The notes under the pieces were generated by a model that worked only from the letters and a program-made list of their open reading frames with translations, did not search any database and was not told where the DNA came from. 64,000 nucleotides of DNA from an uncultured Phycisphaerales bacterium. GTDB lineage: Bacteria > Planctomycetota > B15-G4 > CAYZWU01. A program made the translations under genes and the position numbers. Each line of letters opens with the position of its first letter. Position 1 is the stretch's first letter. Positions 428-49,188 of this stretch are shown piece by piece. The stretch is taken from positions 2,857 to 66,856 of the forward strand of contig CAYZWU010000030.1 in NCBI GenBank assembly GCA_964482235.1, written 5' to 3'.

Positions 428-1336
428 ATGCGCGCCGGCACAAACGATCGTCTGGACAGGGTTGTCGTAACGGGAGTGAGCGGACTCGTGGGATTCGCTT
501 TCTACCGGATCATGCGGGAAAGAGCCCGATCGATTTGTGGCGTCTGGCACAGGACTCCCTTCACGAGGAAGGACGGGAGCGAGGGATCCGATCTCTCCCT
601 GGACCTCACCCGGCTCGACGAGGTCGAAGCGTTCCTGGACAGATACGATCCCACCTTGCTGATAAACTGCGCCGCCTGGCCTGACATCGATCCCTGCGAA
701 TCCGATCCCGAGGGAGCGGAAAGGATCAATGTCGAGCTGCCGGCCCGCATGGCGGCGCTGTGCAGGAAAAGCGGAACCCTTCTCGTGCACTTCTCGACGG
801 ACCAGGTTTTCGACGGAGAGAGAGGTGGATACACCGAGACGAGCCCTCATTCGCCTGTTCATGTCTACGGAAGAACAAAGGCGATGAGTGAAAAAAGAGT
901 GCTGGAAGCCGATCCGGAAGCGATCGTCGCCCGGATCCCGCTCGTCTACGGCAGGTCCTGGACCGGCATCCGGTCCGCGTCGGAGAAGCTCGTCCTCGCC
1001 ATGGAACGGGAGGAGCGCCTCGGCCTCTACACGAACGAGTACCGATGCCCCGTCCTGTCGGACGACGTGGCCCTGGCCGTGCTGTTCCTGGTGGAAGCCG
1101 GCTTCTCCGGACTCATCCAGATCGCCGGACCGGAGCGCCTCAGCCGGATGGAATTCGCGCGCGCCGTTGCCAGGCGGTTCGGCCTCGACGAGGGAAAGCT
1201 GGAACCCGCGCTCTCCGGAGGTCTGTCGGAAAAACCGCGGCGGCCCCTCGATCTCTCCCTCGACACGACGCTGCTCCGTTCGATTCTTCCTTTTCCCGTA
1301 AAAAGAGTCGAGGATGGCCTCGCGCAGGGAGTATGA
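428..1336 (+). CDS. NAD(P)-dependent sugar-nucleotide reductase, RmlD (dTDP-4-dehydrorhamnose reductase) family
   Basis: RBS aaggagaatccg before ATG 428. N-terminal Rossmann motif VVVTGVSGLVG and YGRTK (YxxxK) catalytic motif. Size about 300 aa typical of RmlD-like enzymes. The upstream part of ORF 344 lacks an RBS. Confidence 0.7.
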   Translation: MRAGTNDRLDRVVVTGVSGLVGFAFYRIMRERARSICGVWHRTPFTRKDGSEGSDLSLDLTRLDEVEAFLDRYDPTLLINCAAWPDIDPCESDPEGAERINVELPARMAALCRKSGTLLVHFSTDQVFDGERGGYTETSPHSPVHVYGRTKAMSEKRVLEADPEAIVARIPLVYGRSWTGIRSASEKLVLAMEREERLGLYTNEYRCPVLSDDVALAVLFLVEAGFSGLIQIAGPERLSRMEFARAVARRFGLDEGKLEPALSGGLSEKPRRPLDLSLDTTLLRSILPFPVKRVEDGLAQGV

Positions 1337-2598
1337 TTGCTTCATGCTGCAAAAAAAGGAGTCGATATCTGGTCATGGGTAATAGTGTCGAATCGCAGAA
1401 GTACATCATCGTCATCGTGACGGGTCTGGGCGACCAGCCTCTCGATGCTTTGAAGGAGAAGACGCCCCTCGAGGTGGCGACCACCCCTCATCTCGACAGG
1501 GTTTCCTCGTCAGGCCGGCTGGGGCTCGTGGAGTCCGCGCCCGTTCAGGGCAAGTGGGGCTCGGAAAGGGTGCTCCTCTCGCTGCTGGGGTACGATCCGT
1601 CGCGGGTCACCGTGGCCCGCGGTCCCCTGGAAGCGTCGGGAATCGGGATCGCTCTCTCGCCCCACGACCTGGCGCTGCGCATGAACTTAGTCTCCACGTT
1701 CAACGACATTCTCGAGGACCACAGCGCGGGGCAGATCAGCGATTCCGAGGCTGACGTGCTGCTCAAGATGTTGAATCTCCGCCTGGGAAGCGAGAAGGTC
1801 GAGTTCCACGCCGGCCTCGGATTCCGGAACCTCCTGGTGCTCAGGGGCGGCGCAGACCTCGATTTCAACACCGTGCCGCCTCACGAGGTCGTTCAGCAGC
1901 CGGTGCGCGACTTTATGCCATACGGTCCTGACTCCGAGCTAGTCGTCGACCTCATCGTGCGGGCCGCCGCAGAGCTGGAGAAGCACGACATCAACCGCGT
2001 TCGGATCGATCTTGGCGAGAATCCGGCCAATGCGGTCTGGTTCTGGGGAGAGGGCCATCAGTTCGAGCTCCCTCCCTTTGACGCGATGTTTCCCCTGCGA
2101 GGGGCCGTGGTCGGCGCCGTTCCGCTGATAAGGGGGATTGCGAGGAAGGTCGGCATGACCTACCTGGATGTGGCCGGCGCCACGGGCGGCCTGGATACCG
2201 ATTTCAGCGGGAAGGTCGATGCCGCGATTCAAGCCCTCGACAACTACGACCTCGTCGTGCTCCACGTGGGAGCCGTCAACGAAGCCTGTCTTCAGGGCAA
2301 CCCCACTGCCAAGATAGCAGCCATCGAGGAAGTGGATTCCCGGGTGATCGGCCCGGTGCTGCAGGGGCTGGAGAAGTTTCCGCGCTGGCGGATGATGGTG
2401 GCGGCCGACCACGTGACCTCGTCCCGGGAGGGATCCAGGATCGGCAGCCCTGTTCCCGTGGCGTTCTGCGGCCATAACGTGGAAGGGATCCGGAACTACA
2501 CCTTCACGGAGGCCAACGCAGCCCGCTCCGACCTCTACGTGGAGAAGGGACACAACCTGATGGAGTTCTTTCTGGGAATGAAGAAGAGCCGGGTCTGA
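1333..2598 (+). CDS. cofactor-independent phosphoglycerate mutase, archaeal type (ApgM / metalloenzyme-PhosphMutase family)
   Basis: IVIVTGLGDQPLDALKEKTPLEVATTPHLDRV...LLGYDP...ARGPLEASGIGI...LRMNLVS matches the ApgM N-terminal consensus (GDGMAD...GKTPLE...TPnmD...LGYDP...GRGPLEA). ATG 1333 overlaps the upstream stop (ATGA). Alternative start ATG 1375. The long upstream extension of ORF 1045 overlaps the RmlD-like gene and is rejected. Confidence 0.7.
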   Translation: MIASCCKKRSRYLVMGNSVESQKYIIVIVTGLGDQPLDALKEKTPLEVATTPHLDRVSSSGRLGLVESAPVQGKWGSERVLLSLLGYDPSRVTVARGPLEASGIGIALSPHDLALRMNLVSTFNDILEDHSAGQISDSEADVLLKMLNLRLGSEKVEFHAGLGFRNLLVLRGGADLDFNTVPPHEVVQQPVRDFMPYGPDSELVVDLIVRAAAELEKHDINRVRIDLGENPANAVWFWGEGHQFELPPFDAMFPLRGAVVGAVPLIRGIARKVGMTYLDVAGATGGLDTDFSGKVDAAIQALDNYDLVVLHVGAVNEACLQGNPTAKIAAIEEVDSRVIGPVLQGLEKFPRWRMMVAADHVTSSREGSRIGSPVPVAFCGHNVEGIRNYTFTEANAARSDLYVEKGHNLMEFFLGMKKSRV

Positions 2599-2692
2599 TC
2601 TGTCGGGGGATCCGATTTCTTCCGCGCTGAACAAAACGAGCGCAGGCGTGAGATGACGCGCCTGCGCTCGATGTACTCTTCAGCGCTGGGGC

Positions 2693-4453
2693 CTACTTGA
2701 ACGGGTTGTTGCGGATCTTGATCGGGATCTTGAAGCGCGGGTGTCTCGATCCGACCACCGTGGCGGTGACCTCGATCTCCGTCATGCCCGTAGCCACGAC
2801 GTGCAACACGCGGATCTTCATGGGGGCTTCCTCGATGAACTTTTCGATCTCGAGATATCCCACAACGGCGTCGGATGCGTTGAGGAAGAGGACCAGGTTC
2901 TTGTCCTTGGGGAAGTTGACGTCGTCCTTGGCCTTGTGGACCGCACCGATCTTCTCCAGCTCCCGGTCGGCGCGCTCGTCCTCGGCCTTGGCCGCTTCCT
3001 TCTCCTTGCGCTCCTCTTCAGCCTCGCGTCTTGCCTTTTCCTCCGCCTCGAGCCGGGCTTTCTTCTGCTCCTCGGTCTCTTCCTCGGGGACTGCGGGCTT
3101 CTCTTCCTCCTCCTCCTTGGCTTCCTCTACACCTTCCTTCTTCGTTTCGTCCGCAACGGTCACGTCTGCAGGAGCGACAGCCGCGGGCTTCTGGCTCTTG
3201 TGACGGTAGACGAGGGTGTAGGCGCCGGCCGGAAGGTTCGGCTCCTCGAGAGCACGGGAAAGGGAGATGAGACCTATGGGGAAGTACTCTTCCTGGCTCT
3301 CCTTCACGATCTTGGAGATGCTGACCAGCTGCCTCTCGACCGGGGCGATGACGAAGTGGTCGTAGTTCGTGATGACGGCCATCTTGGGATCCACTTCCTC
3401 GATCTCGACGGCGTAGAAGTTCCTTGTGTCCCACTTCTTGTCCACCATGTACTTCGAGTTCAGCTCCTCGCGGGCGTGGTTGAAGATGTCGATTCCGGGA
3501 TCGGGCGACTTGATGCAGCGGAATCCCACGGAGTCGAAGTTGTTCGACGGCGCGAACTTGTCGCGGATGGCCAGCATGTTGGGCACATCGCCGAGGTGGT
3601 AATGCCCGCTTTTGAGCACGTAGTAGCGATGATCGAAATCGGGCCTCACGGTCTTCTTTTCCCTGCCGATCTTCAGGGTGATCGCCTTGAACTTGTCGTA
3701 CTCGACATAGGGGCTGCTCGTCCATTCCCAGACGCCGGCGGTCATGTCCAGGATGCCGAAGGGCGACGCGCCGTCGGGATAGGAGCCCACGGCGACCATC
3801 GAGTTCCTCCTGTTCTGGCAGAGCTTGGGATTCCACTCGTCGCCCCAGGCGTAGCGGCGGCCGTCGTCTCCGCCGGCGGCCCGCATCCACTCGAGCTCGG
3901 TTGGAATGCGCTTGCCGCACCACCGGGCGAATTCGCAGGCCTCGTAGTAGCTCACGTTGCGGACCGGGAACCGCGCCTGGTTTTCCGGATAGCTCATGCC
4001 TCCGTCGGGACCCTTTCCCCAGGCGAGGGTTTTGAGGTCATTGCTCGGCTTCCGGCCCGTGGCGTCGAGATAGGCTTTCCACTGGGCGTTGGTCACCTCG
4101 CACTTGTCGCAGAAGAACTCCGGCACCATCTCGCGCGGCGTGTGCTTCGGCATGGAGGCGGAAAGGTTCCTCATAACGGTGGGATCGCCTTCTCCGAACT
4201 CTTCCACTTCCTTCTTGCTCAATCCGAGAACGGTCTTGCCGGCCGGGACCTTCACCATGTCGAGAGGCGGCTTCGAGTTGCCCAGGCGGGCAGCTCCGTC
4301 GGTTCCGCGGGTGGTGGTTTCCTTTTCAGGTTCCGGCGAGTTGGAGGCCGCTGCCGTCTGCAGAGGCAGGGATGCCAGCGACAGGACTAGGGTAAGAAAT
4401 AGAACAAATGAAACGATCTGTTTCGAAACAGGATATTCGGCATTGCGTGACAT
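2693..4453 (-). CDS. secreted protein with FGE/SUMF1-fold (sulfatase-modifying-factor-like) domain, Glu/Lys-rich charged linker and C-terminal beta domain
   Basis: Start MSRNAEYPVSKQIVSFVLFLTLVLSLASLP (signal peptide), with aggagcagg RBS upstream of ATG at 4451-4453. FGE-fold motifs EFARWCGKRIPTELEWMRAAGG, GVWEWTSS and GFRCIKSP. No CxxxxC catalytic pair. EK-rich low-complexity segment around 2930-3180. Confidence 0.7.
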   Translation of the reverse strand: MSRNAEYPVSKQIVSFVLFLTLVLSLASLPLQTAAASNSPEPEKETTTRGTDGAARLGNSKPPLDMVKVPAGKTVLGLSKKEVEEFGEGDPTVMRNLSASMPKHTPREMVPEFFCDKCEVTNAQWKAYLDATGRKPSNDLKTLAWGKGPDGGMSYPENQARFPVRNVSYYEACEFARWCGKRIPTELEWMRAAGGDDGRRYAWGDEWNPKLCQNRRNSMVAVGSYPDGASPFGILDMTAGVWEWTSSPYVEYDKFKAITLKIGREKKTVRPDFDHRYYVLKSGHYHLGDVPNMLAIRDKFAPSNNFDSVGFRCIKSPDPGIDIFNHAREELNSKYMVDKKWDTRNFYAVEIEEVDPKMAVITNYDHFVIAPVERQLVSISKIVKESQEEYFPIGLISLSRALEEPNLPAGAYTLVYRHKSQKPAAVAPADVTVADETKKEGVEEAKEEEEEKPAVPEEETEEQKKARLEAEEKARREAEEERKEKEAAKAEDERADRELEKIGAVHKAKDDVNFPKDKNLVLFLNASDAVVGYLEIEKFIEEAPMKIRVLHVVATGMTEIEVTATVVGSRHPRFKIPIKIRNNPFK

Positions 4454-4927
4454 GAAACCTGCTCCTAATCCATGGGGTCTCGAAAGTTGACCAGTATTAA
4501 ATCCACACCGATTTTTATGATTTACCGTCAAAACGGGAGAGAGTAACAAAGGCGGATGCCAGCGTCAATGGGGCTGGGAAATCTCGCATCCCAGGATTTC
4601 GGGTTTTCTTTTTTTTTGAATTTCCGATCGTGCCGTGTAATTCTCGCTTCAGTGCGGTCTTACGAAGCCGTCGGATGTTTCGTTCATTCAGGGAACGATT
4701 TTTCACCCTCTTCCGGCATTGTCAATTCCTTGCCATTTTCCGTGATTTGCCGGGCTTTCGAGCGGAGACGCGGAAAAAGAAGCCGCGCCTTCGTTCTCGA
4801 AGCAGTTCAGCGGCAGTCTCTTACAGCCGCAAGCCGTCATTCGGTGCGGTACTTGGAATCGAGAGGCCCCATCGTGTATCATCATTACCTTTTCCAGAAG
4901 CTTCGATCATGAAAGGATGGCAGCTTC

Positions 4928-5935
4928 ATGACGGAACCGGAAAAGAGCGTGCAGGAGATCGAGATCTCGGCCAAGGAGTCGGGCAGGCGGATCGACCGGT
5001 TCCTCGGCCACCGGCTCTTTCCCGACTACTCCAGAAGCTACCTGACCGGCCTGATCGAGGCGGGACGGATCAAGGTGGACGGCAAGAGGGTTCGCAAGAA
5101 CTACCGGCTCGCCGAGGGCGAGACGATCACTCTCGAGCTGACGGCTCCCAACCCCCAGACGCCGGAGGCGGAGGACATTCCCCTCGAGATCATTCACGAG
5201 GAGGAGCAGTTCGTCGTCATCAACAAGCCGGACGGCTTCATCGTCCATCCCGGCACGGGAGCGAAGAGCGGCACCCTGGTGAACGCCCTGCTGCATCGGT
5301 ATCCCGACCTGGCCCGCGTGGGGATCGCCTACCGGCCCGGCATCGTGCATCGGCTCGACAAGGAGACAACGGGGATCATCCTCGTGGCGCGAACCAACCT
5401 CGCACGCTACAACCTTGTGGAGCAGTTCAAGAGCCGCAAGGTCGAGAAGGAATACCTCGCAGTGGCGGTGGGCGACATCGCGATCCACTCGGACTACATC
5501 GACCTGCCCCTCGGACGTGATCCCAAAAACCCCGAGAAGATGAAGGTGGATCCGGTGAACGGCAAGCCGGCCTCGTCGTTCTACGAGGTCGTGGAGCATT
5601 TCGAGGACTCCTGCCTGGTGAAGATCCAGCTGCACACGGGCCGCACCCACCAGATCCGCGTTCACATGACCCATCTCGGATTTCCTCTCGTGGGCGATGC
5701 CGTCTACGGGCGCGGCAAGAACCAGAAGTACTCCGCGAAGATGAAGGAGGCCGCCTCGGCGGGAAAGGTGCTGCCGGTGATCGACCGCCATGCACTGCAC
5801 GCCTGGAAACTCTCCTTTCTCCATCCCGAATCGGGGGAGCGTGTCTACTTCGAGGCTCCGCTGCCGCGCGACCTGGAGCAGCTCATCGAGTGGCTGCGGG
5901 CGGAACGGGATGGATCGGATGAAACGCCGGCCTGA
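4928..5935 (+). CDS. rluD: RluA/RluD-family 23S rRNA pseudouridine synthase
   Basis: N-terminal S4-like segment (RIDRFL), catalytic HRLDKETTG(I/V) motif and GRTHQIRVH motif. 335 aa. Confidence 0.85.
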   Translation: MTEPEKSVQEIEISAKESGRRIDRFLGHRLFPDYSRSYLTGLIEAGRIKVDGKRVRKNYRLAEGETITLELTAPNPQTPEAEDIPLEIIHEEEQFVVINKPDGFIVHPGTGAKSGTLVNALLHRYPDLARVGIAYRPGIVHRLDKETTGIILVARTNLARYNLVEQFKSRKVEKEYLAVAVGDIAIHSDYIDLPLGRDPKNPEKMKVDPVNGKPASSFYEVVEHFEDSCLVKIQLHTGRTHQIRVHMTHLGFPLVGDAVYGRGKNQKYSAKMKEAASAGKVLPVIDRHALHAWKLSFLHPESGERVYFEAPLPRDLEQLIEWLRAERDGSDETPA

Positions 5936-22333: not shown

Positions 22334-22672
22334 CGTTTTTCATTCCCTTGGTCCCTCGGCGAGGGACAGGACATCGATTTCGGAAAAACCATTATCAGAC
22401 TGACCCAAAAGGATGCGCAAATCCTGTTCCCGATTCAGTCGAAATATGATTCGGCTTAATAGATTGAAATACAAAATGTTACACACGGATCGAGTTCCCC
22501 GGCACGACCAGGGGTGTGCTGAATAGGCACAGGTTGGTTTTTTGCACAACCTTCGATGAGAAGATGAGTTAAAATGACCGGATCGAATCCGGCACCCTTC
22601 ATCGCTCCGGTCAGACCGCGCTCCCTGGCGCGAAACCGGTTTTCAACCTGCAGCTAAGGAGCAGACGGTCCC

Positions 22673-42492: not shown

Positions 42493-42708
42493 TGTTCCCC
42501 GGCCGGCCGGTGAAGGGACTCTCGCGGAGGGACGAAAGGCCTTTTCAGGCGGGAAAGAAGAGGTATTAGCCAATTTATATATAAAGAATATCTGATATAT
42601 TTCGATAATAGAAAGTGTCGGATAAAAAAACTTATAGGTCCGGGCAGCCAACCTGGGGGGGCGGCAGAAAGACAACACCATAACTCTTGATAGAAAAAGG
42701 GGTTGAGG

Positions 42709-45066
42709 ATGAATCTCAAGACGATTTTCTGGTCCGTCATATTGTTGACGCTGCTGGCGCTCTGGAACTGCGGCGGCGGCGGGGGAGGCGGTGGCTCTCT
42801 TCAGGGTCCTGCCGAGACCGGTGACCGCGGCGGGGGCGGAGAAGGCGGAGGCACCGACGGAGGCAGCGGTTACGGTGATTCGGACTTCGAGGTCTCGAGG
42901 GGGCCCTATGGTGGGGACCGCTTCAATGTGGTGATCGATCCACTCGATCCCAACCACATCATCACCGATTCGTGCGATCAGAGCGGAATATGGCTGAGCG
43001 AGGACGGCGGCGAGGAGTGGCGCCGCTGCTCGCCGCAGGGCTCTGCTTTCGAGCGCGCCAACACGCTGATCGCCCTGATGCGCGGCAGCGAGGGCGGCCC
43101 TGACGAGATCCTGGTGGGCATCGCCGATGAGCACGAAGCCACGAGCGCATTCTGGAAGGTCCCGCTCCGGTCGCCGGACGTCGAGGCGGCCCAGGAACTG
43201 CCCGGCGTCGTCTCCCGCATCAAGCGCCTCACCGTGGACCCGCATCCCTCGCGTCCCGGGCGGATCGCCGCGGTCTCGTTCTCCCTTGCCAACCTGCTCG
43301 AGGTGAGCCTGGGAAACATCGTTTTCAGCAGCGACAGGGGCGCCACCTGGAGTCGGTGGTACGCAGGTTCCCGCTATCATGCCGTTCTCGATCTCTGCTT
43401 CGCTCACGGCGGCGAGCGCCTGCTCATCGCCTCGGCCGGCTCGCTGTCGGTCACCGACCTCAATCTCCTCTACGAGGATGAGGGGACTGACGGCGTGCTC
43501 GAGGTCATCTACTCCCTGGAGAGCAACGTTCCCATCAGGCCGGATTGGGTGGCAAGGTATTCGATCGATGAAGTTCCCTGCGTCGTCGTCGCCGATCCCC
43601 AGACCGGTGCGCTGGTCGAACCGTACACCCTTCTCACCGGAAGCCGTGTCCAGGCTTTTGCCATGGATCCCGGCCTCGAGAATGTGATCTGGTTCGCCCA
43701 CTCCCTCGGCCTGGCCCGATCGGTCAGCAACGGGATGACGGCCGAGGACGTGCAGATGGCTCTGACTGGATCGCGGAGCGGTTTCATCACCCCGATGAAG
43801 CACCAGGGCATCACCGTTCTCGATGATCCCGGCTCCGGCGGGGAGGAGACGGTCTTTCTCAGCCTCGGCGGCGGCCTCAGCTGGAACAGGGGGATCTTCA
43901 AGCTCCAGTACGACGTGGAGTCCTCCCTCTGGCAGGCGGAGCGGGTATCGCCAGGTCCATCGACGCGGTTCCAGGAATATCCCAAGGGCCCGGTCTGCGC
44001 CGCGCCGTCGGACGGGAGAAGGCTCTATGCGCCGTACTGCCAGGACTCGATTCTCCGCTCCGACAACTTCGGGGAGATCGAGACCTGGACGGTGGCGAAG
44101 AAGGGGCTGACAGGGGTCAACGTGTTCGGCGTGGTCGAGGATCCGTCGGACTCGAGCGTGGTGATGGTGACCGGACAGAACGTGATCCGGCGCAACAACA
44201 ACCGGATCGCGAACTCCGAGTGGCTGCCCTTCGTGATCCAGCAGGACCAGGTGACCGCGAACCTGAGGGCCGGAGCCATCGTCGATCCCGAGGATTCGAA
44301 CCGGTGGCTCGTGGCAGGCGGCGCCGGCGCCGGCGTCAACCTTAACGGCGGCGCCTGGCTCACGAACGACGGCGGATACACCTGGGAGCGCACGCTGGGC
44401 AGCAACGAGAACCAGGAGACCAATCCGCAGGTCTACGCCATCGCGCAGCATCCCGAGTATCCGGAACTCGTGGCGGCGGCGAGCGGGCTCTGGTGCGGCC
44501 ACGGTACGGCGGGTGTCTTTGCCAGCCTCGAGCGGGGGGCGGCAGGGAGCTTTGTCCAGGTCCTCGGCGACGGAGCCTACGGAGCCCTGGCCGCACTGGA
44601 GATCCCTGGCGAGGCGGGCACCATCCTTGCCGGCGGGGAAGCCGGCCTGGCTCTCCTCACGATCTCCGCCGGCGGCGAGGTTGAAGCAATGAAGCTCGCG
44701 TGGGAGAACGGAGCGATCGCCGCCCTGGCCTGGGACGGCACCACCGTCTACGCCGGGACCGCGGAGGGGAAGATCTTCTCCATCGAGGACGATTCGCTGC
44801 GTGAACCAGGCGCGTGGTACGAGCTCGACGACATCGGATGCGAGATAACGGCCCTGGCCGTCTCGTCGGCGAGACCGGGCGAGATCTATGCCGGAACGAC
44901 GGAGAACGGGATCTTCCGCAGCCTCGATGGAGGCGGGGTGTTCGACCTGTTCGCCAGCGGGCTGGAGAGCAGCGAGCAGAAGGTGTTCTGCCTGCTCATC
45001 TCATCGAGGGGGGACCGGCTCTACGCCGGCACGCTCGGCGGTCTTGCTGTCCGGAAGCTGGATTGA
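42709..45066 (+). CDS. lipoprotein with BNR/Asp-box repeats (two predicted beta-propellers; sialidase/sortilin-like fold)
   Basis: Signal plus Cys (LLALWNCGGGGGG) and a Gly-rich linker. Asp-box motifs SEDGGEEW, SSDRGATWS, TNDGGYTWE, SLDGGGVF. ATG 42709 with an aaggggttgagg RBS. Confidence 0.65.
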   Translation: MNLKTIFWSVILLTLLALWNCGGGGGGGGSLQGPAETGDRGGGGEGGGTDGGSGYGDSDFEVSRGPYGGDRFNVVIDPLDPNHIITDSCDQSGIWLSEDGGEEWRRCSPQGSAFERANTLIALMRGSEGGPDEILVGIADEHEATSAFWKVPLRSPDVEAAQELPGVVSRIKRLTVDPHPSRPGRIAAVSFSLANLLEVSLGNIVFSSDRGATWSRWYAGSRYHAVLDLCFAHGGERLLIASAGSLSVTDLNLLYEDEGTDGVLEVIYSLESNVPIRPDWVARYSIDEVPCVVVADPQTGALVEPYTLLTGSRVQAFAMDPGLENVIWFAHSLGLARSVSNGMTAEDVQMALTGSRSGFITPMKHQGITVLDDPGSGGEETVFLSLGGGLSWNRGIFKLQYDVESSLWQAERVSPGPSTRFQEYPKGPVCAAPSDGRRLYAPYCQDSILRSDNFGEIETWTVAKKGLTGVNVFGVVEDPSDSSVVMVTGQNVIRRNNNRIANSEWLPFVIQQDQVTANLRAGAIVDPEDSNRWLVAGGAGAGVNLNGGAWLTNDGGYTWERTLGSNENQETNPQVYAIAQHPEYPELVAAASGLWCGHGTAGVFASLERGAAGSFVQVLGDGAYGALAALEIPGEAGTILAGGEAGLALLTISAGGEVEAMKLAWENGAIAALAWDGTTVYAGTAEGKIFSIEDDSLREPGAWYELDDIGCEITALAVSSARPGEIYAGTTENGIFRSLDGGGVFDLFASGLESSEQKVFCLLISSRGDRLYAGTLGGLAVRKLD

Positions 45067-45170
45067 GGCAAGGGAGGAATTCAAGTGCCGGTCCATGACC
45101 GGCAGCTGAGATAACCGAATCCGCGCTGCTTGAGGGGGCTCTGCGCGGAAGAAGGGGCTGGGCCGCCCAT

Positions 45171-45284
45171 CACCCATGGAAGAACCAGGTGGGTGATGGT
45201 GCGGTCCTGGCTTTTTGCTCAGCTCCCGAAGCTCCGGCCCATCTCCAGGGCCTTCATGTTGATTTCCACGGTCCTCGGCTTGAC
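45171..45284. repeat. direct repeat copy A: duplicated 3' end of iorB (last 21 codons) plus downstream sequence
   Basis: 45220-45284 matches 46806-46870 at 62 of 65 positions. 45171-45212 matches 46739-46782 at about 85%. Copy A in reverse translation reads VKPRTVEINMKALEMGRSFGS*. Confidence 0.85.
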
Positions 45285-46738
45285 CTGCAAAACCTAAGTC
45301 TATCACCAGGGGATGATATCAAGACGAAGACGTCTGTCTAAGGGTGTGGAATTAGTCCTTGGCGTATAACGCGGACGGACTTTTCCGGAGGGGCAAAATC
45401 TAAAAATGAACTTGCAAAATAGAAATAATATTCTAATTTGCAAGACGTGATACGAAGAAGAGTTCGGCAACAACTTCTTGAGCGTCTGAAAATCCATCCG
45501 GCTGTGGCGCTGATCGGGCCACGCCAGTGTGGCAAGACCACCTTGGCGCAAACTCTGGGCGGAACCTATTTCGACCTGGAGCAGGAACCCGAACGCCTGC
45601 GCCTCGATCTGGAATGGGGGAGTCTCGAGGCAGGAAAGGACCTGGTGATTCTGGACGAGGCTCAGTCCTGGCCGGAGGTCTTCACCCGCCTGCGAGGGGC
45701 CATCGATAAGGATCGCAAGCGCATGGGCCGTTTTCTCCTGCTTGGATCCGTCTCTCCCTCGTTGATGGTTCAGGTTTCCGAATCCTTGGCAGGTCGCCTG
45801 TCGTTGATCGAGTTGACGCCGTTCTTCATGACTGAACTCACTACAAAGGCATCGCGGGAACACCTTTGGTTGTTTGGTGGGTACCCGGATGGCGGTGTGC
45901 TTGAACCCAAGCAATATCCGCGATGGCAACTGGACTACCTGGCACTGCTGAGCCAGCGGGATTTACCTTCATGGGGATTGCCCGCCAAACCGCAGACAAC
46001 CGACCGCTTGTTGCGCATGCTTGCCGCTTTGCACGGTCAGGTATGGAATGCTTCGCAGGTGGGGCAAAGCCTGGGACTTTCTTATCAGACAGTCAACAGC
46101 TACCTCGATTACTTCGAGGGCGCCTTTCTGACACGGCGACTCCAACCCTTTCAGGCGAACATCAAGAAACGGTTGGTCAAGAGCCCCAAGGTATACTGGC
46201 GCGACAGTGGTTTGCTTCATGCTCTCCTGAACGTATCGGACGAACGCGGCCTGCTGGCGCAACCATGGGTGGGGGCCAGCTGGGAGGGTTTCGTGATTGA
46301 GCAGGCGCTCGGCGAAATGTCTTCGCGCGGGCGGAATTTCAATGCCTACTACTTTAGAACCAGCGATCAGCACGAGCTTGATCTGGTGCTGGACTTCGGA
46401 AAAGATCGCTGGGCCGTCGAGGTGAAACTATCGTCCTCACCCGGCCTGGATGACATGAGACAATTGGATAAGACCGCTGACATGATCAGCGCAACACGTC
46501 GTTTCCTGGTATCGCAGACAAGCCGGTCGAGCGATGATGGGCGCCGGGTTTCCTGTAATCTGCCTTCGTTTCTGAAGCATCTTCGTGAGGAATCATAGTC
46601 GTATCAGAAAAAACACGGTCCGCCCGGTGCGCCTCCGGGTGGGCGAAAGCCTGGCAATGAACCATGGTTATACTGAACGACATGATCAAGACCGGATGTT
46701 CTTGTCGTGCGGGCATCGGACCGCGATCGCTCAGTGCA
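45285..46738 (+). mobile_element. about 1.45 kb lower-GC insert between the direct repeats, carrying one AAA ATPase gene. Candidate remnant of an integrated element
   Basis: Bounded by the imperfect direct repeats. AT-rich leader 45285-45437 (about 42% GC) with inverted repeat CTTGCAAA...TTTGCAAG. Codon usage of the ATPase gene differs visibly from flanking genes. No integrase or transposase in the window. Confidence 0.4.
45438..46598 (+). CDS. AAA-family ATPase with C-terminal DUF4143-like domain
   Basis: P-loop LIGPRQCGKTTLA, Walker B VILDEAQ. 386 aa. ORF-track start is TTG 45438. GTG 45447 is an alternative. Confidence 0.7.
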   Translation: MQDVIRRRVRQQLLERLKIHPAVALIGPRQCGKTTLAQTLGGTYFDLEQEPERLRLDLEWGSLEAGKDLVILDEAQSWPEVFTRLRGAIDKDRKRMGRFLLLGSVSPSLMVQVSESLAGRLSLIELTPFFMTELTTKASREHLWLFGGYPDGGVLEPKQYPRWQLDYLALLSQRDLPSWGLPAKPQTTDRLLRMLAALHGQVWNASQVGQSLGLSYQTVNSYLDYFEGAFLTRRLQPFQANIKKRLVKSPKVYWRDSGLLHALLNVSDERGLLAQPWVGASWEGFVIEQALGEMSSRGRNFNAYYFRTSDQHELDLVLDFGKDRWAVEVKLSSSPGLDDMRQLDKTADMISATRRFLVSQTSRSSDDGRRVSCNLPSFLKHLREES

Positions 46739-46870
46739 CACCCATGAGAGGGCCAGGTGGGTGCATGGAGCGGTCCCGGCTATTAACCCTTACGTTTTAC
46801 AGTATCAGCTACCGAAGCTCCGGCCCATCTCCAGGGCCTTCAGGTTGATTTCCACGGTCTTCGGCTTGAC
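46739..46870. repeat. direct repeat copy B (native iorB 3' end and downstream region)
   Basis: See copy A. Includes the authentic iorB stop at 46805-46807. Confidence 0.85.
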
Positions 46871-47377
46871 GTTCTTCTGCAGCGTATCGCGCCAGTTCTC
46901 CATGTCGAAATCGAGATGGTTCGAGAGGACGCCCAGCAGGAGCACATTGACGCTTCTCACGTTTCCCGCCTCGATCGCCATGGCGTTGGCATCGAGAAGG
47001 ACCGTCTTCCCGGCCTTCTCCTTGATCCGGTCTTCCAGCTTCTCCGGGTAGGTCTCCTGTCCCGAGGGAAGGAGCTCCATCGTGTTCACGATGGCCACCC
47101 CGTCGGGTTTCAGGAAGTGGAGCCACCTCAGGGCCTCCATCTTCTCGAAGGCGAGGATGAAGTCCGCCCCGCCTTCCTCGATCAGCGGCGAGTGGATCTT
47201 CTCGCCGAACCGGACGTGGCTCACCACCGAGCCGCCGCGCTGGGCCATCCCGTGCACCTCGCTCTTCTTCACGTCATAGCCCTGATCCAGAGCGAGAGCC
47301 GAGAGGATCTTGCTCGAGAGGAGGATTCCCTGGCCGCCCACACCGCAGATGAAAACGTTGGTCATCTTCTTCGTCAT
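46805..47377 (-). CDS. iorB: indolepyruvate:ferredoxin oxidoreductase beta subunit (2-oxoacid oxidoreductase gamma-type)
   Basis: MTKKMTNVFICGVGGQGILLSS N-terminus with a gaggaag RBS. 190 aa. Follows iorA. Confidence 0.8.
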   Translation of the reverse strand: MTKKMTNVFICGVGGQGILLSSKILSALALDQGYDVKKSEVHGMAQRGGSVVSHVRFGEKIHSPLIEEGGADFILAFEKMEALRWLHFLKPDGVAIVNTMELLPSGQETYPEKLEDRIKEKAGKTVLLDANAMAIEAGNVRSVNVLLLGVLSNHLDFDMENWRDTLQKNVKPKTVEINLKALEMGRSFGS

Positions 47378-47433: not shown

Positions 47434-49188
47434 TCACTTCCCCTCGAGGGGCTGGATGGCTCCGGTGGGGCAGACCTGGCCGCAGACGTTGCACACGTCC
47501 CCGGCGCAGAGGATCGAGGTGATGTATGATTTCTCCTCCCCTTCCCCGCCGACCTTCGAGATGGCGGGACAGCCGGTCTTGCGGCACATGGCGCAGTTGA
47601 TGCAGGTCTCCGCTTCCACGGTGCGGGGGTCCCTGCCGGCCTCGCGGTTGCGCAGGATGCAGGCGCCGCGCACGACGACGAGCGAGGAGACATCCTTCGA
47701 CGTCTCCTCCTTGAGCGTCTCGAGAACGGCCTTCACGTCGTAGGCGTCCACCAGGGTGAAGCTCTCGATCCCCACGGCCTTGGCCAGCATCTCGTAGTCG
47801 ACGGCAACGGTTTCCTGGCCGGAGAGGGTCTTCCCGCTGCCGGGATGATCCTGATGTCCGGTCATGGCGGTGATCGAGTTGTCGAGCACGATCACCGTGG
47901 AGGTTCCCTTGTTGTAGGCGAGGTTGATCAGCCCGGTGATTCCCGTGTGGACGAAGGTGGAGTCGCCGATCACGGCCACGGTCTTGCGGCCCTCTTCGGG
48001 GTCGAGGGCTTTCTGCATGCCGTGGGCCGACGTGACGCTGGCACCCATGCAGATGCAGCTGTCCATGCCGTTCAGGGGCGGCAGGGCGCCCAGCGTGTAG
48101 CAGCCGATGTCGCCCATGGCGTGAAGCCTCAGCTTGCGGATCGCCAAAAAAGCGCTGCGGTGGGGGCAGCCGGAGCAGAGGACAGGGGGGCGGCCCGGGA
48201 CTTCGGCCGGGGTGAACTCGGTCCTGCTCTCGGTCAGGCTTTCCCGGACGATCCTCTGGTTCAGCTCGCCGCAGAGCGGAACCTTCGCCTTGCCGACAAC
48301 GTCGATGCCGGCCAGCCGGGCGGCCTCCTCGATGAACGGCTCGCCCTCCTCGACCACGTAGACCGTGTCGACCTTGGCGGCGAAGGCCTTGACCTTCTCA
48401 TCCGGGAAGGGATAGCACATGCCGAGCTTGAGGAAGGAGGCCCCGGGGAAGGCTTCGCGCGCATACTGGTATGAGATCCCTGAAGCGATGACGCCGATCT
48501 TCGTGTCGGCCATCTCTTCCTTGTTGAGATCGCTCGTCTCCGCGAGCTCCTTCAGCTTGCCGAGCCGCTCCTCAAGGTCCTTGTGGCGGACACGGGCGTT
48601 GGCCGGGATCAGGACGCGCTTGCGCATGTCCTTCTCGTAGCTTACCTCCTTCGGCTGGACGGGATCGTTCGTTTCCACCGGTGTGAGAGCGTGGCAGAGG
48701 CGGGTGCTCATCCTGAAGAGGATCGGCGTCCCGTACTCCTCGGAGATCTCGAAGGCCCGGACCAGGAGGTCCTTCGATTCCTGCGAATCGGTGGGCTCGA
48801 TCACGGGGAGCTTGGCGAACTTGGCGTAGAGCCGGTTGTCCTGCTCGTTCTGCGACGAGTGCATTCCCGGATCGTCGCAGCAGACGATGACCAGCCCGCC
48901 GTGGGCGCCGATGTACGAGGCGCTGAAGAGGGGATCGGCCGCCACGTTGAGCCCCACGTGCTTCATCACCGCCATGCTTCTCTGGCCGGTGAAGGAGGCG
49001 CCGAGGGCGACCTCGACGGCCGCCTTCTCGTTGGGGCACCACTCGGAGTAAACCGTTTCGTACTTCACGAGATTTTCGAGAATCTCCGTGCTGGGTGTGC
49101 CGGGATAGGCGGCTGCAAGCTTGACCCCCGCCTCGAATGCACCCCTGGCAACGGCCTCGTTTCCTGATATGAGTTCTGCCATCGTCAA
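47434..49188 (-). CDS. iorA: indolepyruvate:ferredoxin oxidoreductase alpha subunit (TPP and 4Fe-4S binding)
   Basis: GAFEAGVKLAAAYPGTPSTEI, the TPP GDIGCYTLG region, and C-terminal CINCAMCRKTGCP and CNVCGQVCP ferredoxin motifs. Confidence 0.85.
   Translation of the reverse strand: MTMAELISGNEAVARGAFEAGVKLAAAYPGTPSTEILENLVKYETVYSEWCPNEKAAVEVALGASFTGQRSMAVMKHVGLNVAADPLFSASYIGAHGGLVIVCCDDPGMHSSQNEQDNRLYAKFAKLPVIEPTDSQESKDLLVRAFEISEEYGTPILFRMSTRLCHALTPVETNDPVQPKEVSYEKDMRKRVLIPANARVRHKDLEERLGKLKELAETSDLNKEEMADTKIGVIASGISYQYAREAFPGASFLKLGMCYPFPDEKVKAFAAKVDTVYVVEEGEPFIEEAARLAGIDVVGKAKVPLCGELNQRIVRESLTESRTEFTPAEVPGRPPVLCSGCPHRSAFLAIRKLRLHAMGDIGCYTLGALPPLNGMDSCICMGASVTSAHGMQKALDPEEGRKTVAVIGDSTFVHTGITGLINLAYNKGTSTVIVLDNSITAMTGHQDHPGSGKTLSGQETVAVDYEMLAKAVGIESFTLVDAYDVKAVLETLKEETSKDVSSLVVVRGACILRNREAGRDPRTVEAETCINCAMCRKTGCPAISKVGGEGEEKSYITSILCAGDVCNVCGQVCPTGAIQPLEGK

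What the first reader, a model, noticed from the sequence alone, without database searches (positions are those of the whole stretch)
45171..46870. 1.45 kb lower-GC insert carrying a DUF4143-type AAA ATPase, flanked by imperfect direct repeats (about 115-130 bp) that duplicate the 3' end of iorB
Segment 45220-45284 is a near-perfect copy (62 of 65 nt) of 46806-46870, the last 21 codons plus stop of iorB on the minus strand. Similarity continues for about 45 more bp of downstream sequence (45171-45212 vs 46739-46782), with an indel between.

The DNA between the copies is visibly lower in GC. It has an AT-rich leader with a CTTGCAAA/TTTGCAAG inverted repeat over the start codon. It contains a single gene, a P-loop ATPase of the family often found on mobile or defence islands.

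Repeats this long that re-create the 3' end of a host gene are the signature of integrase-mediated site-specific insertion (attL/attR), not a transposon target-site duplication. No integrase or transposase is present. This is therefore either a decayed island, a satellite-like element, or a recombination product.
Basis: seen in the sequence. Interest (0 to 1): 0.65.

Follow-up and report, generated by a model that had tools for sequence, protein, structure and literature searches.

The report
Small foreign gene insert duplicating iorB's end
A 1.45 kb piece of foreign DNA carrying one ATPase-nuclease gene (a widespread, unproven "phage-defence candidate") has been inserted just after the metabolic gene iorB, copying about 115-130 bp of the insertion site to both sides; this is a clean, verified example of a known kind of small insertion that carries no integrase of its own.

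Summary
Window 45219-45284 matches 46805-46870 at 63 of 66 nt. This segment is the last 21 codons plus stop of iorB. The repeat continues, less well conserved, through 45171-45212 and 46739-46782.

A related organism (locus L175, IorB 88% identical) has the same gene order with iorB followed directly by the BNR-like gene, and it carries the repeated segment only once. So 45285-46738 (1,454 bp) is an insertion with a 114/132 bp target duplication.

The insert is compositionally foreign: GC3 is 0.65 against 0.83-0.89 for host genes. It holds a single gene, an AAA_14 + DUF4143 (PD-(D/E)XK) ATPase that matches PADLOC PDC-S01. The gene has its own consensus-like promoter inside a palindrome and appears to be leaderless.

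No integrase or transposase lies in the insert or within ±6 kb. None was detected in the window by a search of limited sensitivity.

Related ATPase genes elsewhere are sometimes flanked in the same way by a duplicated 3' end of a host gene: tRNA-Arg, a kinase gene, and a zinc-ribbon gene.

I read the feature as an integrase-less, att-flanked mini-island, a new member of a known kind. "Insertion with long target duplication" is the main rival. Interest is moderate.

The parts
45171..45284 (-). Repeat copy A, the displaced copy. 45219-45284 is a non-functional duplicate of the last 21 codons plus stop of iorB (VKPRTVEINMKALEMGRSFGS*). 45171-45212 is the spacer plus the inner part of the intergenic hairpin. 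Copy A is contiguous with the original host DNA leading to the BNR-like gene.
45157..45211 (-). Complete intergenic hairpin between the convergent iorB and BNR-like genes; probable shared terminator. Only this copy is complete.
   Evidence: -34.2 kcal/mol, z = -4.3. The same hairpin is present in the empty site L175 (-38 kcal/mol, z = -4.1) with base changes that keep the stem.
45285..45395 (.). Left arm of the insert: foreign, low-GC (0.505) non-coding DNA not shared with any other copy of the cassette.
45411..45444 (+). Palindromic promoter/operator of the ATPase gene. The -35 box is TTGCAA (45412-45417), followed by a 16-nt spacer holding an inner inverted repeat TAGAA...TTCTA, then the -10 box TAATTT (45434-45439), then 7 nt to the start codon. 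The transcript is therefore predicted to be leaderless.
   Evidence: (I7). The motif is conserved in about 70 loci, with TATAAT at the -10 position in most.
45447..46598 (+). Gene for a 383-aa AAA+ ATPase (AAA_14; Walker A GPRQCGKTT, Walker B VILDEA) fused to DUF4143, a PD-(D/E)XK nuclease-fold domain with intact E...D...ExK residues. It is a PADLOC PDC-S01 candidate.
   Evidence: dN/dS is 0.12 against the closest copy.
46617..46647 (+). GC-rich hairpin after the ATPase stop codon (CCGCCCGG...CCGGGTGGG), shared with the L171-173 copies. It marks the 3' limit of the shared cassette.
46648..46738 (.). Right arm of the insert: foreign, low-GC (0.538) non-coding DNA not shared with other copies.
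46739..46870 (-). Repeat copy B. 46805-46870 is the functional 3' end of iorB. 46739-46804 is the spacer (with 11-17 extra nt) plus a truncated copy of the hairpin that no longer folds well.
   Evidence: z = -0.3
46805..47377 (-). iorB (indolepyruvate:ferredoxin oxidoreductase beta subunit, PF01558), the target gene. It remains intact.
42703..45066 (+). BNR/Asp-box-like 785-787 aa gene, convergent with iorB. It is the other flank of the insertion site.

Best explanation
**What is shown**
- A 1,454-bp segment of foreign DNA (45285-46738) sits between the convergent genes iorB and a BNR-like gene.
- It is bracketed by two diverged copies (114 and 132 bp) of a target that is single-copy in a relative. 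The target is the last 21 codons and stop of iorB plus the spacer and most of the intergenic hairpin.
- The insert carries one self-contained expression cassette: a consensus-type promoter inside a palindrome, a probably leaderless AAA+ ATPase / PD-(D/E)XK nuclease gene of the PDC-S01 type, and a hairpin. The gene is intact and under purifying selection.

**What is inferred (mechanism)**
- The structure is an attL/attR-like pair. It was made when incoming, probably circular, DNA that already carried an orthologous copy of the iorB end from a closely related donor recombined once with the host's iorB end (Campbell-type integration).
- This regenerates an intact iorB and displaces a second copy of the gene end to the far side of the insert.
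- The recombinase is not encoded in the element. It was either supplied in trans, as for integrase-less 'cis-mobilizable' mini-islands, or was host RecA acting on the 31-nt identical core.
- Today the unit is a fixed, probably immobile, single-gene islet. Its gene is kept by selection, most plausibly as a nucleic-acid-targeting conflict or defence protein that represses its own promoter.
For: 1. **Empty site.** L175 (IorB 88% identical) has iorB, then 157 nt, then the BNR-like gene, BtpA and DS, with no ATPase. L175 positions 1-789 align to window 47596-46795 and positions 714-5537 align to 45284-40443. The overlapping segment is single-copy there and double here.
2. **Foreign origin.** GC3 is 0.648 against 0.83-0.89 for host genes, and the arms have GC 0.50-0.54.
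3. **Divergence pattern between the two copies.** The coding part differs at 3/66 positions (one synonymous, K>R, L>M; reading frame and stop kept). The non-coding part differs at 10/48 positions plus 3 indels (Fisher p = 0.014). This looks like two orthologous loci rather than one copy decaying.
4. **Timing.** The ATPase has only about 1% lineage-specific change since it split from the L171 copy (dS 0.067). That is less than the non-coding repeat divergence, as expected if the repeat divergence pre-dates the integration.
5. **Same architecture at related ATPase loci.**
   - L137: an intact tRNA-Arg(CCT) and a partial copy running from the anticodon stem to 20 nt past the 3' end flank the ATPase. 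Differences are 0/48 in the tRNA part against 5/19 beyond it (p = 0.0012).
   - L092: the repeat is the last 20 codons of a zinc-ribbon gene, with 11 differences of which 10 are synonymous.
   - L116: the repeat is the last 9 codons plus stop of a kinase gene, with the stop retained as TAG/TGA.
6. **Enrichment.** Flanking repeats of at least 40 bits occur at 5 of 66 ATPase loci against 3 of 448 control intervals (p = 0.0012).
7. **Link to tyrosine integrases.** Phage_integrase is the commonest neighbouring family (L124, L125/L126, L142). In L126 the order is ATPase, tRNA fragment, two-gene cassette, tRNA fragment, integrase.
Against: - No integrase lies in the insert or within ±6 kb. None was detected in the 64 kb window with an HMM built from three integrases found next to other ATPase copies, although that search has limited sensitivity.
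- Copies 95-96% identical in other contexts (L171-173, L174) share only 45388/45396-46609/46647. The 111-nt and 91-nt arms, which would be attP arms, are not conserved with the gene.
- None of 80 other iorAB loci carries such an element, so there is no sign of an iorB-specific element family.
- Comparison with the outgroup L175 does not give a clean mosaic of host and donor segments.
- All counts for the window repeat are small.
- Most ATPase loci, including solitary ones between housekeeping genes (L179, L183-186), have no flanking repeats.
Confidence: 0.45

Rival explanations
1. **Insertion with long target duplication (Nobusato/Furuta/Kobayashi type).** One cut was inside iorB at about 46870 and the other in the 3' arm of the intergenic hairpin at about 46739. 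Fill-in of the long overhangs duplicated the 114-132 bp target in place. The two copies have diverged since.
For: - The phenomenon is documented for Type I-IV restriction genes, including a solitary Type IV nuclease gene. Those cases have repeats over 30 bp, no mobility genes, and repeats that overlap the 3' end of a flanking gene (PMC2853133).
- Here the cargo is also a nuclease-domain gene.
- There is no recombinase.
- The insert has imprecise, non-conserved, uniformly low-GC arms.
- One repeat boundary falls inside a hairpin stem and the other inside a coding region, with no symmetric core.
- At 2 of the 3 coding differences, copy A is the derived copy, as expected for a decaying duplicate.
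Against: - The coding part of the useless copy A is much better conserved than the non-coding part (p = 0.014) and keeps its frame and stop.
- Non-coding repeat divergence (21% plus indels) exceeds what the roughly 3% per-lineage synonymous change of the ATPase since its nearest relative allows, if insertion followed that split.
- In L092 and L137 the divergence between copies is clearly that of sequences under selection.
- The molecular mechanism of this class has never been demonstrated.
Confidence: 0.28
2. **Remnant of a larger integrative island.** An integrase-bearing island integrated at the iorB 3' end using its own attP. Internal deletions later removed everything except the selected ATPase gene and both att sites.
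For: - ATPase genes of this family are sometimes cargo next to tyrosine integrases and tRNA genes (L124, L126, L142).
- L142 shows a decayed integrase fragment and a truncated integrase around the ATPase.
- The structure is att-like.
Against: - The insert is only 1,454 bp, with 111-nt and 91-140-nt non-coding arms that contain no gene fragments.
- Three further independent repeat-flanked units (L137, L116, L092) are also reduced to essentially the ATPase alone. That would need repeated, similarly precise deletions, although my search looked only within 1 kb of the gene and so could only find small units.
- No iorB-associated island was seen in 80 iorAB loci.
Confidence: 0.15
3. **The ATPase-nuclease moves itself.** PDC-S01 genes would be autonomous single-gene mobile elements. 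The AAA+ / PD-(D/E)XK / DNA-binding protein would cut targets at gene ends and promote insertion of its own cassette with a long target duplication.
For: - The unit shared between contexts at 95-96% identity is just promoter, gene and hairpin.
- Proteins are 75-98% identical across MAGs named as several phyla, and more than 8000 homologues were found.
- The gene carries a universal consensus promoter with leaderless start, which would be host-independent.
- Neighbours are extremely diverse: 135 Pfam families among 149 neighbouring ORFs.
- Minimal repeat-flanked units recur.
- One PDC-S01 representative gave no phage protection in E. coli.
Against: - Most copies have no flanking repeats.
- The cassette ends are not exact; the right ends differ by 38 nt.
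- No terminal repeats were found.
- Tiny repeat-flanked cassettes with other cargo exist next to an integrase in L126, so the ATPase is not needed to explain them.
- No PD-(D/E)XK protein is known to act as an integrase (my own knowledge).
Confidence: 0.1

Closest known systems
Insertion with long target duplication of restriction-modification and Type IV nuclease genes (Nobusato et al. 2000; Furuta, Abe and Kobayashi 2010, PMC2853133)
   Same: A small unit encoding a nuclease-type conflict gene and no mobility gene is flanked by direct repeats of tens to hundreds of bp. The repeats align to a single-copy sequence in an empty-site genome and overlap the 3' end of a neighbouring gene. The insert's GC differs from the host's.
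   Different: The cargo is not an R-M pair but a solitary AAA+ ATPase / PD-(D/E)XK fusion (PDC-S01). The two repeat copies are 5-20% diverged in a pattern that suggests separate histories, whereas most published cases are near-identical.
Integrase-less att-flanked islands (cis-mobilizable elements, CIMEs, of the ICESt1/ICESt3 family; named from my own knowledge)
   Same: attL/attR-like repeats bracket a short cargo segment that lacks recombination genes. The target is the 3' end of a gene, which stays intact.
   Different: No cognate integrase-bearing element using the iorB end was found. The element is far smaller (1.45 kb, one gene). CIMEs are known from Firmicutes ICE families, not from this lineage.
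tRNA-gene or gene-3'-end integrating genomic islands and prophages (tyrosine integrase attP x attB)
   Same: A duplicated 3' gene end restores the target. Related ATPase units at tRNA-Arg (L137) show the classical repeat running from the anticodon stem to the 3' end.
   Different: There is no integrase gene, and the repeat is imperfect with an indel.
PADLOC candidate system PDC-S01 (AAA_14 + DUF4143; COG1373)
   Same: HMM match at E = 1.4e-83 over the full length, with the same two-domain architecture. The literature describes the type as an ATPase fused to a PD-(D/E)XK domain and as the fourth commonest defence candidate (PMC12988326).
   Different: Nothing differs at the level of membership. 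Function is unproven: one representative did not protect E. coli against T4, T5 or T7 (bioRxiv 10.1101/2024.09.26.614923).

Membership tests
Site-specific integrative element (attL/attR) | Flanking direct repeats correspond to a single-copy target in an uninserted genome | tested here: met
   L175 empty site
Site-specific integrative element (attL/attR) | Integration at a gene's 3' end regenerates an intact gene | tested here: met
   iorB is a 190-aa full-length PF01558 protein, and its C-terminus matches homologues
Site-specific integrative element (attL/attR) | Element encodes a tyrosine or serine recombinase | tested here: not met
   The ATPase is the only gene in the insert. There are no recombinase Pfam hits within ±6 kb and no hit in the window with an integrase HMM.
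Site-specific integrative element (attL/attR) | Excision to a circle and restoration of attB | not testable with these tools
   Raw reads would be needed. All 11 contigs from this population carry the insert junction.
Integrase-less cis-mobilizable element (CIME-like) | att repeats flank cargo that lacks recombination and transfer genes | tested here: met
Integrase-less cis-mobilizable element (CIME-like) | A related autonomous element uses the same att site | tested here: not met
   No ATPase or element was found next to iorB in 80 iorAB loci or elsewhere in the window. The sample of close relatives is very small.
Insertion with long target duplication (Furuta et al. 2010 criteria) | Repeat over 30 bp aligns to one copy in an empty-site genome; insert under 20 kb; no mobility genes | tested here: met
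   114/132 bp repeats, 1,454 bp insert
Insertion with long target duplication (Furuta et al. 2010 criteria) | Insert contains restriction (and modification) gene homologues | tested here: inconclusive
   There is no methyltransferase. The cargo is an ATPase plus PD-(D/E)XK fold protein of unknown activity. The paper does include a solitary Type IV mcrA case.
PDC-S01 / COG1373 ATPase | AAA_14 plus DUF4143 architecture with a full-length HMM match | tested here: met
   Pfam 1.5e-20 and 9.6e-42; PADLOC PDLC04790 1.4e-83
PDC-S01 / COG1373 ATPase | Intact Walker A/B and PD-(D/E)XK catalytic residues | tested here: met
   GPRQCGKTT and VILDEA are present, as are E280, D312 and E325-x-K327, which are invariant or nearly so in 40 homologues. 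The fold model is low-confidence but shows an alpha-beta-beta-beta-alpha-beta C-terminus and hits Can2/Card1 nucleases.
PDC-S01 / COG1373 ATPase | Anti-phage activity | not testable with these tools
   The literature treats it as a candidate only; one negative assay is reported.
DNA transposon / insertion sequence | Transposase gene, terminal inverted repeats, short (2-15 bp) target-site duplication | tested here: not met
   There is no transposase, no terminal inverted repeats at 45285/46738, and the duplication is 114-132 bp.

The most novel reading that the evidence does not exclude
PDC-S01 (AAA_14-DUF4143) genes, currently counted as the fourth most common 'defence system' in prokaryotes, may primarily be autonomous single-gene selfish elements. 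In this reading the unit is a promoter-plus-leaderless-gene cassette. Its ATPase-nuclease would promote insertion of the cassette next to the 3' ends of genes and tRNAs, with long, variable target duplications. The window would hold one such insertion caught with both duplicated ends still recognisable.
Probability: 0.1. Interest if true: 0.8.

Novelty: new member of a known kind. Interest (0 to 1): 0.42.

Why it matters
For this genome, it is a well-documented example of how a single conflict or defence-type gene enters a housekeeping operon boundary without damaging either neighbour. The target duplication gives iorB a complete coding end and leaves the full terminator hairpin with the BNR-like gene.

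More broadly, PDC-S01 is one of the most abundant unvalidated 'defence' candidates.
- It travels as a minimal promoter-to-stop cassette.
- Its consensus promoter with leaderless start is nearly universal across the family.
- It is 75-98% identical across MAGs named as different phyla.
- It is sometimes bracketed by duplicated 3' ends of host genes.

Tried and rejected
- **Transposon or IS reading.** Rejected: no terminal inverted repeats, no transposase, and a duplication far too long.
- **Copy A as only a conserved terminator.** Rejected: the hairpin is conserved in the empty site, but the 66-nt gene-end copy is not present a second time there.
- **Chance repeat.** Rejected.
- **Phage or prophage origin.** There are no PHROG hits and no relatives of the ATPase in 2.9 million IMG/VR contigs.
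- **Close genome relatives for an empty site.** In the GTDB species collection the best IorA match is only 57% identical (Candidatus Eisenbacteria MAGs), so this was not useful. The empty site came instead from exact-protein look-ups of IorB homologues.
- **Search for the two arms of the insert elsewhere in held data.** No meaningful matches.
- **Protein-level search for diverged flanking repeats.** It was swamped by low-complexity high-GC frames. Only L092, L116, L136, L137, L142 and the window gave meaningful hits.
- **Outgroup polarisation of the repeat differences with L175.** Uninformative: 2 vs 0 in the coding part and 2 vs 4 vs 4 in the non-coding part.
- **GC amelioration of the ATPase in the high-GC host.** No signal: 7 GC>AT against 3 AT>GC changes.
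- **Repeats around the neighbouring BNR-like gene.** None found.
- **Structure prediction.** The model was low-confidence (pLDDT 61.5), so fold matches are used only as weak support.
- **PDB sequence search.** It found only generic P-loop similarity.
- **Plasmid hits.** They are distant (at most 47% identity) and were not pursued.
Full report
**1. The observation**

The repeat finder reports 45219-45284 against 46805-46870 (66 nt, 63 identical) and 45171-45195 against 46739-46763 (84%). A pairwise alignment joins these into one repeat of 114 nt (copy A, 45171-45284) and 132 nt (copy B, 46739-46870), with a 17-nt indel between the two blocks. A 29-nt core occurs exactly twice in the window and never in 100 shuffles.

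Copy B is the true 3' end of a 190-aa PF01558 (POR) gene on the minus strand (46805-47377). That gene lies downstream of a TPP-enzyme/POR_N gene (47434-49188), so the pair is iorB and iorA. Copy A translates to VKPRTVEINMKALEMGRSFGS*. It is open and has the stop in the same place, but nothing lies upstream of it.

The DNA between the copies has GC 0.55 against 0.63 for the window. Third-position GC of its only gene is 0.648 against 0.83-0.89 for five neighbouring host genes.

**2. It is an insertion: the empty site**

The window is identical to metagenome contigs from several samples (SUTE22-1 SAMN10231894 scaffold_176; JGI 3300009128 Ga0118727_1000148). Every contig encoding the identical or 99%-identical IorB that reaches far enough carries the insert junction.

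The nearest species-level genomes have only 57% IorA identity (Candidatus Eisenbacteria MAGs), so genome collections were of no help. A search with IorB found a protein 88% identical (P0122). Its contig, L175, has iorB, 157 nt, the BNR-like gene on the opposite strand, then BtpA and deoxyhypusine synthase. This is exactly the window's gene order, minus the ATPase.

By blastn, L175 positions 1-789 align to window 47596-46795 and positions 714-5537 align to window 45284-40443. The overlapping stretch is present once in L175 and twice in the window. In the three-way alignment, copy A runs on into host DNA shared with L175, whereas copy B loses similarity immediately after CATGGGTG at 46739. The insert is therefore 45285-46738, which is 1,454 bp.

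Folding shows what was duplicated:
- L175 has a long intergenic hairpin (-38 kcal/mol, z = -4.1).
- Copy A plus adjoining host DNA has the same complete hairpin (45157-45211, -34.2 kcal/mol, z = -4.3).
- Copy B contains only the 5' arm, the loop and 8 nt of the 3' arm, and no longer folds better than shuffles (z = -0.3).

So one boundary of the duplication lies inside iorB and the other inside the 3' arm of the shared terminator-like hairpin.

A more distant relative (IorB 71% identical, L187-189) has iorB running directly into BtpA, with neither the BNR-like gene nor the ATPase. The DNA downstream of iorB is therefore a recurrently variable spot.

**3. What the insert carries**

The only gene is a 383-aa protein with AAA_14 (E = 1.5e-20) and DUF4143 (E = 9.6e-42) domains. 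It matches the PADLOC candidate system PDC-S01 over its full length (E = 1.4e-83).

DUF4143/COG1373 is classified in the PD-(D/E)XK superfamily (PMC3424549). PDC-S01 is described as an ATPase fused to a PD-(D/E)XK domain and as the fourth most common defence candidate in prokaryotes, still unvalidated (PMC12988326). One representative gave no protection against T4, T5 or T7 in E. coli (bioRxiv 10.1101/2024.09.26.614923).

In the window's copy the Walker A (GPRQCGKTT) and Walker B (VILDEA) motifs and the E...D...ExK residues are intact and conserved in 40 homologues. A low-confidence AlphaFold model (pLDDT 61.5) shows an alpha-beta-beta-beta-alpha-beta C-terminal domain. Its best PDB matches are the CARF-nuclease proteins Can2 and Card1, VC1899, and clamp-loader AAA+ subunits. 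I use these only as weak support. There is no related solved structure by sequence, no PHROG hit and no NCBIfam hit.

Comparison with about 70 related loci fixes the start codon at 45447. It is GTG here and ATG elsewhere. The comparison also reveals a nearly universal upstream motif:

cTTGCAAAaTAGAAAt-N3-4-aTTTCTAtAATgCAAGac-ATG

This reads as a -35 box (TTGCAA), a 16-17-nt spacer containing an inverted repeat, a -10 box (TATAAT; TAATTT in the window), and 7 nt to the start codon. It is a consensus-type promoter for a leaderless mRNA, embedded in a palindrome that is a plausible auto-operator. The promoter reading and the leaderless reading are inferences from sequence. My simple promoter scan did not call it in the window because the -10 box there is degenerate.

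**4. How the gene is distributed**

More than 8000 homologues score below E = 1e-20. The best 120 are 75-98% identical and come from MAGs named as Deltaproteobacteria, Zixibacteria, Planctomycetota and Tectomicrobia.

Copies with 95-96% DNA identity sit in other contexts:
- L171-173, from the same sample, next to an rve_3 transposase gene;
- L174, next to an rve gene.

These share with the window only 45388/45396 to 46609/46647, that is promoter, gene and terminator hairpin. Copies at 79-87% DNA identity begin and end at the same points. They lie next to another rve gene (L178), next to IS66 (L180-182), or alone between housekeeping genes (L179, L183-186).

A Pfam census of 149 neighbouring ORFs from 65 loci found 135 different families. 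The commonest was Phage_integrase with 4 members, corresponding to L124, L125/L126 and L142.

The gene is under purifying selection: dN/dS is 0.12 against L171 and dS is 0.067. It shows no GC amelioration in this host. No relative was found in IMG/VR.

**5. Other repeat-flanked copies**

Among 66 metagenomic ATPase loci with usable flanks, 5 have direct repeats of at least 40 bits within 1 kb on each side. Among 448 random control intervals, 3 independent cases were found, and two of those are internal repeats of long genes (Fisher p = 0.0012). Because the search looked only within 1 kb of the gene, it could only find small units.

Inspected case by case:
- **L137.** An intact tRNA-Arg(CCT) lies upstream of the ATPase. 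A partial copy lies downstream, running from the anticodon stem to 20 nt past the 3' end. The tRNA part is identical at 48/48 positions, while the trailing part differs at 5 of 19.
- **L116.** The repeat is the last 9 codons plus stop of an 845-aa kinase/LRR gene. It shows one synonymous change, one D/E change, and a stop retained as TAG versus TGA.
- **L092.** The repeat is the last 20 codons of a small zinc-ribbon gene. There are 11 differences, of which 10 are synonymous.
- **L142.** The repeat is the 3' end of a truncated tyrosine integrase gene that lies beside a tRNA-Arg.
- **L126.** The order is ATPase, tRNA fragment, a DUF4160/DUF2442-like gene pair, the same tRNA fragment, then a 423-aa integrase.
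- **L124.** The order is tRNA-Arg(ACG), integrase, ATPase.

In L137, L116, L092 and the window, the arrangement is the same: an intact host gene, the insert, then a displaced copy of that gene's 3' end.

**6. Mechanism**

What is shown: foreign DNA was inserted with a 114/132-bp duplication of a single-copy target, no recombinase is encoded in or near it, and the gene is maintained by selection. How the duplication arose is inferred.

I favour Campbell-type (att-like) integration of DNA that already carried an orthologous copy of the target, for three reasons.
1. In the window the coding part of the repeat differs at 3/66 positions while the non-coding part differs at 10/48 plus three indels (p = 0.014). 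That is the pattern of two orthologous loci, not of one functional copy and one freely decaying copy.
2. In L092 and L137 the divergence between copies is clearly that of sequences evolving under selection.
3. The ATPase has changed only about 1% on its own lineage since its closest relative. This is hard to reconcile with about 20% non-coding divergence between the repeats if they were identical at insertion. The argument fails if the insertion predates that split.

The 31-nt identical core (45226-45256) is long enough for RecA-mediated recombination (my own knowledge of minimal homology lengths). Alternatively, an integrase could have acted in trans, as for integrase-less cis-mobilizable islands.

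The main rival is 'insertion with long target duplication', described for restriction-modification and Type IV nuclease genes. In those cases repeats over 30 bp overlap the ends of neighbouring genes, and no mobility genes are present (PMC2853133). This rival fits the absence of any recombinase, the undefined ends of the insert, its uniformly low-GC arms and the asymmetric repeat boundaries. With the small counts available I cannot exclude it.

A decayed larger island is possible but needs very tidy deletions. Self-mobilisation by the ATPase-nuclease is the most novel reading. It is weakened by several findings:
- Most copies lack flanking repeats.
- The ends of the cassette are not exact.
- Equally tiny repeat-flanked cassettes with other cargo sit beside an integrase in L126.

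**7. Verdict**

The assignment to integrase action specifically is not established.

The feature is a new member of known kinds: an integrase-less att-flanked mini-island, or an insertion with long target duplication. It carries a PDC-S01 gene.

Interest is moderate. It lies mainly in what this and the sister loci suggest about how one of the commonest unvalidated 'defence' genes spreads.

Noticed in passing
window 45411-45449, and the 55 nt upstream of the ATPase start in about 70 loci (L091-L183): There is a nearly universal upstream motif, cTTGCAAAaTAGAAAt-N3-4-aTTTCTAtAATgCAAGac-ATG. It reads as a consensus -35 box, a 16-17 nt spacer, a -10 box, and 7 nt to the start codon, so the mRNA is predicted to be leaderless. 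The spacer holds an inverted repeat, and arm changes are compensated (for example TTGTAAA/TTTACAA in L171). The window's copy has a weaker -10 (TAATTT) and a GTG start.
   Followed up: partly
L137 1281-1376 and 3003-3073: The ATPase gene is bracketed by an intact tRNA-Arg(CCT) and a partial copy running from the anticodon stem to 20 nt past the 3' end. No integrase lies in the 1.6 kb between them.
   Followed up: partly
L092 5791-5850 and 7696-7755: The ATPase, together with a truncated ORF I read by eye as metallophosphoesterase-like (not searched against Pfam), is flanked by an intact small zinc-ribbon gene and a partial copy of its last 20 codons. The two copies differ at 11 nt, of which 10 are synonymous, so they diverged as functional coding sequence.
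   Followed up: partly
L126 6052-6085 and 6725-6758: Two 34-nt tRNA 3'-end fragments bracket a tiny two-gene cassette. I identified the pair as DUF4160/DUF2442-like by eye, not by Pfam. The cassette lies between the ATPase gene and a 423-aa tyrosine integrase. It looks like tandem accretion of mini-cassettes at one att site.
   Followed up: partly
L187-L189 (IorB 71% identical) compared with window 42703-45066: In a more distant relative with the same operon, iorB runs straight into BtpA. The 2.4 kb BNR-like gene is therefore itself present or absent between lineages, and the DNA downstream of iorB is a recurrent variable spot. No flanking repeats were found around the BNR-like gene.
   Followed up: partly
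window 46434-46536 (ends of contigs L005, L006, L007, L010, L177): Five short contigs from different samples stop inside the 3' end of the ATPase gene. Three of them stop at exactly 46536. This fits assembly breaks caused by a second, 96%-identical ATPase copy (the L171 type) in the same communities.
   Followed up: no
window 45157-45211 compared with L175 795-850: The intergenic hairpin between the convergent iorB and BNR-like genes is conserved in structure, with changes on both arms (ACCCA/TGGGT against TCCCA/TGGGA). It has no T-run after it, so it may be a bidirectional terminator or a processing site.
   Followed up: partly
window 22510-22600: ARAGORN calls a tRNA-Ala(TGC) that is 91 nt long, about 15 nt longer than usual. 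It may contain an insertion or intron, or it may be an over-extended call.
   Followed up: no
L155 4666-4696 and 6750-6780: A control interval unrelated to the ATPase showed a 31-nt direct repeat (94% identical) bracketing two small ORFs. This may be another mini-insertion with target duplication.
   Followed up: no
L124 8026-8144: There is a perfect tandem array of a 17-nt unit (AATCGCCCGCTCGCGTC) with at least 6 copies, running towards the end of the locus.
   Followed up: no
Plasmid hits H5, H6, H10, H14-H17: Distant homologues (about 44% identical) on Roseobacter-group plasmids lie within 1-3 kb of the record start or end. That would place them next to the replication/partition region, if those records are numbered from there.
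   Followed up: no
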